DNA from: a virus
Direction: 5' to 3' (one strand)
IMG/VR virus record: IMGVR_UViG_3300032322_001315
Coordinates: 26,510-90,509 of that record
Length of the DNA: 64,000 nt
A program made the translations under genes and the position numbers. Numbering within the stretch: the stretch's first letter is position 1; the number at the start of each line of letters is the position of its first letter. Under the pieces are notes generated by a model. That model did not search any database, was not told the DNA's origin, and worked only from the letters and a program-made list of their open reading frames with translations. Below, piece after piece: positions 19,677 through 19,748 of the stretch.

Positions 19677-19748
19677 TTAGCGTGCAGCAATATACATGGT
19701 AACTTCAAATCCAAAACGCTTGTCTTGTGCAGTTGGCTTAGTCCACAT
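19677..19748 (-). CDS. pqqA: pyrroloquinoline quinone precursor peptide PqqA (23 aa)
   Basis: Manual translation [23 protein letters not shown] with the WxKP...RxGFExTMY PqqA signature; strong SD TAAGGAG 6 nt upstream; own terminator. Below the ORF-track cutoff. Confidence 0.93.
   Translation of the reverse strand: [23 protein letters not shown]

What the first reader, a model, noticed from the sequence alone, without database searches (positions are those of the whole stretch)
19677..19748. Phage-encoded PqqA: a stand-alone redox-cofactor precursor peptide gene
Seen: an unannotated 23-aa ORF, [23 protein letters not shown], with a strong TAAGGAG SD and its own terminator, next to rubrerythrin. 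Established: PqqA is the ribosomal precursor whose Glu and Tyr (ExxxY) are cross-linked by PqqE/PqqD to make PQQ, the cofactor of periplasmic methanol/alcohol/glucose dehydrogenases. It is consumed stoichiometrically, one peptide per PQQ. No pqqB-E is in the window. Inference: the phage supplies only the consumable substrate, keeping host PQQ synthesis running after host shutoff. This would be a RiPP precursor acting as an auxiliary metabolic gene, small enough for gene callers to miss. The [11 protein letters not shown] ending resembles betaproteobacterial PqqA, implying a PQQ-using host.
Basis: partly seen in the sequence, partly recalled or inferred. Interest (0 to 1): 0.92.

Follow-up and report, generated by a model that had tools for sequence, protein, structure and literature searches.

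The report
Stand-alone pqqA gene in a phage
A T4-like phage carries a real, selectively maintained 23-codon copy of pqqA, the peptide that host enzymes consume to make the cofactor PQQ, but such phage pqqA genes are widespread and one was already published in 2020, so this is a new member of a known kind.

Summary
Window 19677-19748 (-) encodes [23 protein letters not shown] with an AAGGAG Shine-Dalgarno 6 nt upstream and a hairpin plus T7 run downstream, followed by a rubrerythrin-like gene. The peptide passes both curated PqqA models (Pfam 34.5 bits against a 21.1 cut-off; TIGR02107 33.4 against 20).

The 90.5-kb viral contig has no pqqB, C, D or E. Neither do 50 other pqqA-bearing viral records, including complete genomes. 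A capped IMG/VR scan returned 120 of 120 genuine pqqA mini-genes, in T4-like and in sipho/podo-type contigs. Every cultured OM43 and LD28 phage record that matched carries one, unannotated or covered by a gene call on the wrong strand.

Within this phage's clade the codons differ mostly at synonymous sites, while the peptide changes at only two positions.

The most likely function is an auxiliary metabolic gene that supplies the consumable substrate to host PqqBCDE. This is inferred, not shown.

It is not new. Coutinho et al. 2020 (PMC7678222) reported a viral PqqA, and this scan already holds 309 phage-pqqA notes from at least 158 genomes.

The one local oddity is Lys at leader position 10, which is hydrophobic in every other copy examined. 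It was found only in this phage clade and in none of the 581 bacterial genome searches.

The parts
19677..19748 (-). pqqA: 23-codon CDS plus stop, [23 protein letters not shown]. Cross-link residues are Glu15 and Tyr19. Lys10 in the leader is unusual.
   Evidence: sequence; PF08042, 34.5 bits, cut-off 21.1; TIGR02107, 33.4 bits, cut-off 20; synonymous against non-synonymous change.
19755..19761 (-). Shine-Dalgarno sequence TAAGGAG, 6 nt upstream of the ATG.
   Evidence: AAGGAG is invariant in the alignment of clade relatives, and an AGGAG-like box precedes nearly all of the 120 IMG/VR copies.
19621..19655 (-). 3' hairpin (stem 19628-19634 / 19649-19655, with an inner 3-bp stem) followed by a T7 run at 19621-19627. 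Probable intrinsic terminator or transcript stabiliser.
   Evidence: fold; the hairpin is conserved in 7 clade sequences, with one GC<->AU compensatory pair and two one-sided changes that keep pairing.
19772..19788 (-). Small 5' hairpin about 10 nt upstream of the SD. Clade relatives have a hairpin of different sequence at the same place.
   Evidence: terminator-like hit without a good T-run; two pairs are kept through changes on both sides.
19795..19802 (-). Conserved A/T box ATTAAATA (relatives have ATAAAATA), upstream of the 5' hairpin. Possible T4-late-type promoter element; tentative.
   Evidence: columns A.AAATA are invariant in 7 sequences. Reading it as a late promoter rests on my own knowledge of the T4 consensus TATAAATA and was not tested.
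19168..19602 (-). Downstream neighbour: rubrerythrin-like (ferritin-fold) protein, 144 aa, with its own AGGAG.
   Evidence: It follows pqqA only in the window, L248, L249 and L251.
19859..20269 (-). Upstream neighbour: 136-aa protein of unknown family, syntenic with pqqA throughout the clade.
   Evidence: no family above cut-off; homologues at 72-98% identity lie directly upstream of pqqA in L166 and L246-L252.

Best explanation
This is a genuine, host-derived pqqA gene kept by a lytic T4-like phage as a stand-alone auxiliary metabolic gene.

It appears built as a compact unit: a conserved A/T box, a 5' hairpin, a strong SD, 23 codons, and a 3' hairpin/terminator. The peptide is proposed to be bound through its N-terminal leader by the host's PqqD. 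Host PqqE would then cross-link it between Glu15 and Tyr19, and host PqqF/G, PqqB and PqqC would trim and oxidise it to PQQ.

One peptide is destroyed per PQQ made, and a short peptide and its mRNA probably turn over faster than the enzymes. The precursor is therefore the pathway component most likely to run out once host transcription stops. A phage copy would keep PQQ, and with it the host's periplasmic PQQ-dependent methanol/alcohol dehydrogenase and energy supply, going during infection.

Shown here: gene identity, stand-alone status, purifying selection, and recurrence in unrelated phage lineages. Inferred: expression, processing by host enzymes, and benefit to the phage.
For: 1. Identity. 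PF08042 and TIGR02107 both score above their curated cut-offs. W2, K4, P5, R11, G13, F14, E15, V16, T17 and Y19 all match the family core.

2. Stand-alone status. There is no pqqB, C, D or E in the 90.5-kb contig. None lies within the flanks of the 120 IMG/VR pqqA loci (1.0 Mb; positive control on a bacterial contig). No PqqC, and no PqqE above cut-off, was found in 50 whole viral records. These include 6 that are at least 90% complete, an 85%-complete 145.7-kb relative of this phage, and the complete Melnitz, Venkman, P19250A and ctXG6705 genomes. The PqqC model was validated on bacteria.

3. Selection. The seven distinct clade sequences give pS=0.49 against pN=0.017, and the window and L251 differ only at synonymous sites. 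PqqA stays 21-23 of 23 identical where the neighbouring orf136 has dropped to 72% identity. Across 117 distinct viral sequences dN/dS is about 0.10. R11 (5 codons) and F14, which the search pattern did not constrain, are invariant.

4. Recurrence. All 120 hits of a capped IMG/VR scan are intact 23-25-aa ORFs with a start codon next to W2, nearly all preceded by an AGGAG-like SD. Among them, 44 loci share proteins with T4-like phages and 48 with sipho/podo-type phages (11 loci share with both). Ten GenBank phage records carry it, among them all matched cultured OM43 and LD28 phages.

5. Host parallel. Methylophilaceae MAGs hold 5 and 8 dispersed pqqA copies, and Methylophaga holds up to 3 in tandem. 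Each bacterial copy examined is followed by its own hairpin and most by a T-run as well, the layout seen in the phage.

6. Candidate hosts. The bacteria with the nearest PqqA have pqqBCDE and a PQQ alcohol dehydrogenase.

7. Mechanistic background. The PqqA leader binds PqqD and its C-terminal Glu/Tyr region engages PqqE (PMC10906245).
Against: There is no expression or biochemical evidence. The host is not identified, so whether it has pqqBCDE is inferred only from the nearest PqqA relatives.

Leader position 10 is Lys here but M, L, I or V in every other viral and bacterial copy examined. The [DE]-K-R variant was not found in 401 + 59 + 121 bacterial genome searches, three samples with some overlap. 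A charge at a conserved hydrophobic leader position could weaken PqqD binding, or could mean a different role.

The dN/dS values are inflated in favour of constraint, because the homologues were found with patterns that fixed several residues.

Mature PQQ dehydrogenases are generally stable (my own knowledge, not checked here), so it is not obvious that new PQQ is limiting within one infection cycle.
Confidence: 0.7

Rival explanations
1. Decoy or inhibitor. The phage peptide, with its altered leader (Lys10), binds host PqqD/PqqE unproductively or out-competes host PqqA. This would throttle PQQ synthesis and methanol oxidation, for example to limit formaldehyde or to redirect SAM and reducing power to the phage.
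For: Lys10 is unique to this phage clade among about 260 PqqA copies examined and was absent from the 581 bacterial genome searches. The leader is the part that contacts PqqD.
Against: Most phage copies (about 110 of 117 distinct sequences) keep a canonical leader identical or nearly identical to the Methylophilaceae type, so inhibition cannot be the general explanation. Glu15, Tyr19 and the whole core are intact, as expected of a substrate. Hosts themselves multiply pqqA copies, which points to supply being limiting rather than harmful.
Confidence: 0.07
2. PQQ as a soluble redox or antioxidant molecule rather than a dehydrogenase cofactor. Together with the adjacent rubrerythrin-like protein, the phage boosts a peroxide/ROS-protection module during infection.
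For: pqqA lies directly upstream of a rubrerythrin-like gene in the window, L248, L249 and L251. It also lies in a block of stress and accessory genes: Cpn10, Hsp20 and AdoMet decarboxylase.
Against: The pqqA-rubrerythrin adjacency is missing in L166, L246, L250 and L252 and in Melnitz, Venkman and P19250A. A hairpin plus T-run separates the two genes. This reading still needs host PqqBCDE, so it is a variant of the AMG reading rather than an alternative mechanism.
Confidence: 0.1
3. Neutral passenger or recombination remnant. A short, highly conserved host sequence was picked up by illegitimate recombination, or serves as an integration or recombination target, with no benefit to the phage.
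For: Host genomes carry many dispersed pqqA copies that could act as recombination substrates. In Melnitz the gene abuts a tRNA gene, a classic recombination hotspot.
Against: The ORF, start codon and SD are complete in all 120 IMG/VR copies, and synonymous divergence is saturated over an almost invariant peptide. The flanking 5' and 3' hairpins are conserved with compensatory changes. T4-like phages are lytic and have no attP (my own knowledge). The gene is more conserved than its phage neighbour.
Confidence: 0.05

Closest known systems
Viral PqqA of Lake Baikal viral population VP_266 (Coutinho et al. 2020, Microbiome; PMC7678222)
   Same: A PQQ precursor peptide gene on a virus predicted to infect methylotrophs, proposed as an AMG that supports methanol dehydrogenase.
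   Different: That report rests on annotation of one metagenomic population that also encodes a methanol dehydrogenase. Here the contig has no PQQ dehydrogenase, the phage is a T4-like myovirus of a different clade, and the leader carries Lys10.
Unannotated pqqA of cultured methylophages (Melnitz, Venkman, MEP301/401/402, P19250A)
   Same: A 23-24-aa stand-alone pqqA with its own SD and no pqqB-E in complete genomes. Melnitz is also a T4-like myovirus.
   Different: 61-77% peptide identity by tblastn. Those copies have the canonical E-M-R leader. Their genomic positions differ: in Melnitz the gene lies next to tRNA-Leu and the baseplate genes. The Melnitz paper does not mention the gene.
Orphan, multi-copy pqqA genes of Methylophilaceae and Methylophaga
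   Same: Stand-alone 23-aa genes, each with an SD and its own hairpin (most also with a T-run), dispersed away from pqqBCDE. The core is the same, RFGFEVTMY.
   Different: These are chromosomal and have a hydrophobic residue at position 10. The closest bacterial peptide is 19 of 23 identical.
Cyanophage psbA (the D1 protein), as an analogy for how it works (my own knowledge, not tested here)
   Same: The phage encodes only the fastest-turnover, consumable component of a host energy-harvesting system and relies on the host for the rest.
   Different: D1 is a structural protein subunit that is replaced. PqqA is a sacrificial substrate converted into a small-molecule cofactor.

Membership tests
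PqqA (PF08042 / TIGR02107), PQQ precursor peptide | Scores above the curated family thresholds. | tested here: met
   PF08042: 34.5 bits against 21.1, covering all 19 profile positions. TIGR02107 equivalog: 33.4 bits against 20, positions 1-21 of 21.
PqqA (PF08042 / TIGR02107), PQQ precursor peptide | Glu-X3-Tyr pair that PqqE cross-links, embedded in the G-x-E-V-T-x-Y core. | tested here: met
   G13-F-E15-V-T-M-Y19 is present. E15 and Y19 are invariant in 117 distinct viral sequences, though the search pattern required them.
PqqA (PF08042 / TIGR02107), PQQ precursor peptide | Short (about 20-40 aa) independently translated ORF with its own ribosome-binding site. | tested here: met
   23 codons, ATG start, AAGGAG 6 nt upstream. 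The layout is the same in the 120 IMG/VR copies.
PqqA (PF08042 / TIGR02107), PQQ precursor peptide | N-terminal leader compatible with PqqD binding (W-x-K-P, hydrophobic position 10, R11). | tested here: inconclusive
   W2, K4, P5 and R11 are present. Position 10 is Lys instead of M/L/I/V. No residue-level binding data were found. The peptide is too short for the complex-prediction tool.
PqqA (PF08042 / TIGR02107), PQQ precursor peptide | Availability of pqqB, C, D and E to process it, in cis or in the same cell. | tested here: not met
   Not present in cis: absent from the contig and from the relatives. Presence in the host cell cannot be tested because the host is unknown. The nearest bacterial PqqA owners do have pqqBCDE. 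Orphan bacterial copies are accepted family members, so this does not exclude membership.
PqqA (PF08042 / TIGR02107), PQQ precursor peptide | Actual conversion to PQQ. | not testable with these tools
   Needs biochemistry or genetics.
Phage auxiliary metabolic gene (AMG) | A host-type metabolic gene embedded between bona fide phage genes on a viral genome. | tested here: met
   The gene is flanked within about 3 kb by family-B DNA polymerase, Cpn10, dCMP deaminase, Hsp20 and phage tRNAs. The polymerase is 51% identical to those of T4-like cyanophages. The record is an IMG/VR viral contig.
Phage auxiliary metabolic gene (AMG) | Maintained by purifying selection and recurrent in independent phage lineages. 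| tested here: met
   selection, with the caveat of pattern ascertainment; T4-like and sipho/podo-type lineages.
Phage auxiliary metabolic gene (AMG) | Expressed during infection and altering host metabolism. | not testable with these tools
   Needs infection transcriptomics and PQQ measurement.

The most novel reading that the evidence does not exclude
The Lys10 leader is a phage-specific adaptation, fixed in this T4-like clade and not seen in any bacterial PqqA examined. It makes the phage precursor behave differently from the host's: for example, tighter or faster capture by PqqD, escape from a host protease or regulator of PqqA, or use with the PqqD of several host species. That would make it an engineered-by-evolution RiPP precursor rather than a plain copied gene.
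Probability: 0.2. Interest if true: 0.55.

Novelty: new member of a known kind. Interest (0 to 1): 0.35.

Why it matters
PQQ-dependent methanol/alcohol dehydrogenase is the entry point of energy metabolism in abundant aquatic methylotrophs (OM43, LD28, Methylophaga). If phages top up the one consumable of PQQ synthesis, they directly sustain C1 oxidation in infected cells. This would be a compact example of the rule that phages carry the fastest-turnover part of a host pathway, here a RiPP precursor.

In practice, 23-codon genes fall below gene-caller thresholds. In GenBank phage records this gene is missing or replaced by a call on the wrong strand, so viral AMG inventories undercount it.

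The idea itself is already in the literature, and this scan has met it many times. The added value of this window is modest: one more T4-like clade, evidence of selection, conserved flanking hairpins, and an unusual leader residue.

Tried and rejected
- My first IMG/VR pattern had a miscounted run of N and matched nothing, not even the window. It was corrected.
- The search for related loci and the search for homologous proteins refuse a 23-aa query, so all homologue hunting used degenerate DNA patterns. This biases conservation estimates.
- The two 'Acinetobacter phage MD-2021a' tblastn hits were rejected as phage evidence. The one inspected (H11) is a bacterial contig with ppk and pqqBCDE.
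- L166, nominally a Terrimicrobiaceae MAG contig and the best 'bacterial' match (21 of 23), was rejected as a host clue. It is a 1.7-kb fragment with the phage's own orf136-pqqA synteny.
- Host identification failed. Genome handles carry no taxonomy, and similarity of PqqA is a weak guide. Melnitz and Venkman infect the same strain yet their PqqAs differ at 5 aligned positions plus an extra N-terminal Lys.
- The orf136 protein as a single query found only two near-identical relatives, so an unbiased presence/absence census of relatives was not obtained.
- Sequencing runs: four DNA metagenome runs of one study hold the stretch, and no RNA holder is listed.
- Complex prediction was not used, because PqqA is shorter than the 30 residues it needs.
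- No sigma-70-type promoter was found upstream of pqqA on its strand.
I saw only a 5-7-bp hairpin and an A/T box.

Full report
**Observation**

The minus strand of window 19677-19748 reads ATG TGG ACT AAG CCA ... TAT ATT GCT GCA CGC TAA, which translates to [23 protein letters not shown]. TAAGGAG lies 6 nt upstream of the ATG.

A longer 42-aa ORF from a GTG at 19805 also exists. However, the PqqA profile aligns only to its last part, residues 20-38, and every homologue found starts M-W, M-K-W or similar. The 23-codon reading is therefore the right one.

Twenty nucleotides after the stop there is a GC-rich hairpin (stem 19628-19634 / 19649-19655) followed by seven T's. Then come an AGGAG and the ATG of a 144-aa rubrerythrin-like protein.

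**Identity**

The peptide scores 34.5 bits on Pfam PqqA (gathering cut-off 21.1) across all 19 profile positions. It scores 33.4 bits on the NCBIfam equivalog TIGR02107 (cut-off 20). With about a thousand ORFs of 20 aa or more in the window, an E-value of 2e-8 per protein is far beyond chance.

The Glu15 and Tyr19 that PqqE cross-links are present, as is the W-x-K-P ... R-x-G-x-E-V-T-x-Y skeleton. The contig holds a single copy.

**Genomic context**

The window is part of a 90.5-kb IMG/VR viral contig, estimated about 51% complete. Around pqqA lie these genes:
- a family-B DNA polymerase, 51% identical to those of T4-like cyanomyophages
- five tRNA genes
- an RNase H-like protein
- Cpn10
- AdoMet decarboxylase
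- dCMP deaminase
- Hsp20

G+C is about 35%. This is a lytic-type T4-like myovirus, and pqqA lies in an accessory-gene stretch between core genes.

**Stand-alone status**

HMM searches of the whole contig found no PqqB, PqqC, PqqD or PqqE and no PQQ-dependent alcohol dehydrogenase.

The contig is incomplete, so I extended the test in three ways:
- A local tblastn with PqqB/C/D/E from three bacterial operons found nothing in the 1.0 Mb of flanks around 120 viral pqqA loci. The same queries readily found the operon in a bacterial contig from a different class.
- HMM searches of 50 whole pqqA-bearing viral records found no PqqC and no PqqE above cut-off. One record had a weak, generic radical-SAM hit. 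The 50 include six records at least 90% complete, a 145.7-kb 85%-complete relative of this phage, and the complete Melnitz, Venkman, P19250A and ctXG6705 genomes.
- The PqqC model was validated on three bacterial genomes.

Phage pqqA therefore comes alone.

**Prevalence**

A tblastn against 50,697 phage records gave 12 hits. Ten are real phages: four Melnitz isolates, Venkman, MEP301/401/402 (all OM43 hosts), P19250A (LD28 host) and an uncultured podovirus. The other two, labelled 'Acinetobacter phage MD-2021a', are the same assembly; the one inspected is a bacterial contig with ppk and pqqBCDE.

In none of the ten is pqqA annotated. In Melnitz and ctXG6705 a 'hypothetical protein' is called on the opposite strand.

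All 120 hits are intact 23-25-aa ORFs with a start codon next to W2, nearly all preceded by an AGGAG-like SD.

Eighty-one of them share proteins with isolate phages or with this window. Of these, 44 share with T4-like phages and 48 with Venkman/P19250A-type phages, with 11 sharing both. In several T4-like contigs pqqA lies within a few kb of homologues of this window's DNA polymerase, Hsp20 and neighbouring genes.

**This phage's clade and selection**

A pattern specific to the Q-D-K-R leader found seven IMG/VR relatives. A 1.7-kb contig mis-binned into a Terrimicrobiaceae MAG also belongs to the clade.

All keep the order orf136-pqqA (orf136 is 72-98% identical). Rubrerythrin follows in only three of them.

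The peptides differ only at T6I and A22S. The coding sequences differ at many third positions: pS=0.49 and pN=0.017 among seven distinct sequences, and the window and L251 differ only at synonymous sites.

Across 117 distinct viral pqqA sequences dN/dS is about 0.10. The patterns fixed several residues, so these figures overstate constraint. Even so, R11 (five different codons) and F14 were unconstrained by the general pattern and are invariant.

PqqA is also much better conserved than its phage neighbour. The gene is under purifying selection as a peptide.

**Flanking RNA features**

The 3' hairpin is nearly invariant in the clade, far more so than synonymous sites of the CDS. It shows one GC<->AU compensatory pair and two one-sided changes that keep pairing. 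In the window it is followed directly by T7. In other members a second hairpin with a T-run follows.

Upstream, all members have a short hairpin about 10-15 nt before the SD, and two of its pairs change on both sides. All also have an invariant A.AAATA box further upstream that resembles a T4 late-promoter core. The promoter reading comes from my own knowledge and is untested.

Every bacterial pqqA copy I inspected, whether in an operon or orphan, is also followed by its own GC hairpin, and most by a T-run as well. The phage gene therefore has the same mini-transcription-unit architecture as the host genes.

**Host side**

The closest bacterial peptides are 19 of 23 identical:
- [23 protein letters not shown], in marine betaproteobacterial MAGs/SAGs of 1.4-1.8 Mb
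- [23 protein letters not shown], in other betaproteobacterial MAGs

In the first group pqqA heads a pqqABCDE operon. Of four such genomes tested, three have PqqC above cut-off (one MAG lacked it) and all four have a PQQ alcohol dehydrogenase above cut-off. Methylophaga is 16 of 23 identical.

Methylophilaceae MAGs carry 5 and 8 dispersed pqqA copies, and Methylophaga carries up to three in tandem. These hosts evidently raise pqqA dosage themselves.

The actual host of this phage was not identified. Similarity of PqqA is a weak guide, since two phages of the same OM43 strain differ at 5 aligned positions plus an extra N-terminal Lys.

**The oddity**

Position 10 of the leader is M, L, I or V in all other viral copies (110 of 117 distinct sequences; the remaining 7 are this clade) and in all 141 bacterial copies collected.

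The [DE]-K-R variant was not found in 401 sampled genomes of the order, 59 of the family of the nearest marine MAG, or 121 Methylophilaceae. These are samples with some overlap, so the right wording is 'not found in those searched'.

Published HDX and NMR work places the leader on PqqD and the Glu/Tyr end in PqqE (PMC10906245). I found no residue-level data for this position. It may be tolerated variation, may match an unsampled host, or may be a phage adaptation.

**Mechanism and rivals**

The best reading (0.7) is an AMG that supplies the sacrificial precursor to host PqqD/E/B/C (and F/G), sustaining PQQ and PQQ-dependent alcohol oxidation after host shut-off. It fits the stand-alone state, the selection, the recurrence in unrelated phage lineages of PQQ-using methylotrophs, and the host's own strategy of multiplying pqqA.

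The rivals are:
- A decoy or inhibitor of PqqD/E (0.07). This is suggested only by Lys10 and contradicted by the canonical leaders of most phage copies.
- A PQQ-as-antioxidant module with rubrerythrin (0.10). The adjacency is not conserved, and host enzymes are needed in any case.
- A neutral passenger or recombination remnant (0.05). Selection and complete gene architecture contradict it.

**Novelty**

Coutinho et al. 2020 (PMC7678222) already reported PqqA on a Baikal viral population of methylotroph phages and proposed it as an AMG. No other paper in the searchable library does so, and the Melnitz paper does not mention the gene.

This scan has 309 notes on phage pqqA in at least 158 genomes. 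An earlier follow-up (e1-3443365) reached the same conclusions on another phage.

The present case is therefore a new member of a known kind. What it adds: a separate T4-like clade, quantified stand-alone status and selection, conserved flanking hairpins, and the Lys10 leader. No experiment on any phage pqqA appears to exist, so the function is still open.

Noticed in passing
window 20273-20533 (-): The Cpn10/GroES-like gene (PF00166) is only 66% identical between the window and its otherwise near-identical relatives L248 and L249, whose neighbouring genes are 90-100% identical. This looks like an allelic replacement of the co-chaperonin inside a conserved block.
   Followed up: no
window 17765-18593 and 21832-21992 (-): Five phage tRNA genes flank the pqqA block: Gly-TCC, Leu-TAA, a 94-nt Ile-TAT with a long variable arm, Met-CAT and Arg-TCT. 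In Melnitz pqqA sits directly upstream of a tRNA-Leu.
   Followed up: no
window 20917-21366 (-): An AdoMet decarboxylase (PF02675, E=1e-16), a polyamine-synthesis AMG, lies about 1.2 kb from pqqA. It overlaps the preceding 165-aa ORF by about 80 nt.
   Followed up: no
window 19168-19602 (-): The 'rubrerythrin' scores well below the full-length equivalog cut-off (117 bits against 200) and matches positions 3-147 of the 194-position model. Part of it shares 81% nucleotide identity over 163 nt with the putative rubrerythrin of Pelagibacter phage Mosig.
   Followed up: partly
L166 (JBMOHW010000466.1, 1-1721): A 1.7-kb contig binned into a Terrimicrobiaceae MAG carries orf136-pqqA with the phage's synteny and its 3' hairpin. 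It is a phage fragment mis-binned into a bacterial MAG.
   Followed up: yes
L255 (CAKLQF020000010.1, 105710-110775): A GenBank record named 'Acinetobacter phage MD-2021a' is a bacterial contig here (ppk, pqqA, pqqB, pqqC, pqqD, pqqE). Its pqqA is not annotated either.
   Followed up: yes
L001 4001-4066 (Melnitz MZ577097.1) and L004 2119-2187 (MW202481.1): In both records the gene caller placed a 'hypothetical protein' on the strand opposite to pqqA. These are wrong-strand calls that hide the real gene.
   Followed up: partly
G498 and G499 (genomes of L210 and L243); L202, L204: A Methylotenera MAG has 8 pqqA matches and a Methylophilaceae MAG has 5, all above cut-off and on different contigs. 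Methylophaga-like MAGs have three tandem copies about 260-290 nt apart.
   Followed up: partly
window 19795-19802 (-) and the same column in L166, L246, L247, L250-L252: An invariant A.AAATA box upstream of the 5' hairpin of pqqA may be a T4-late-type promoter, which would place pqqA in the late transcription class. Not tested.
   Followed up: no
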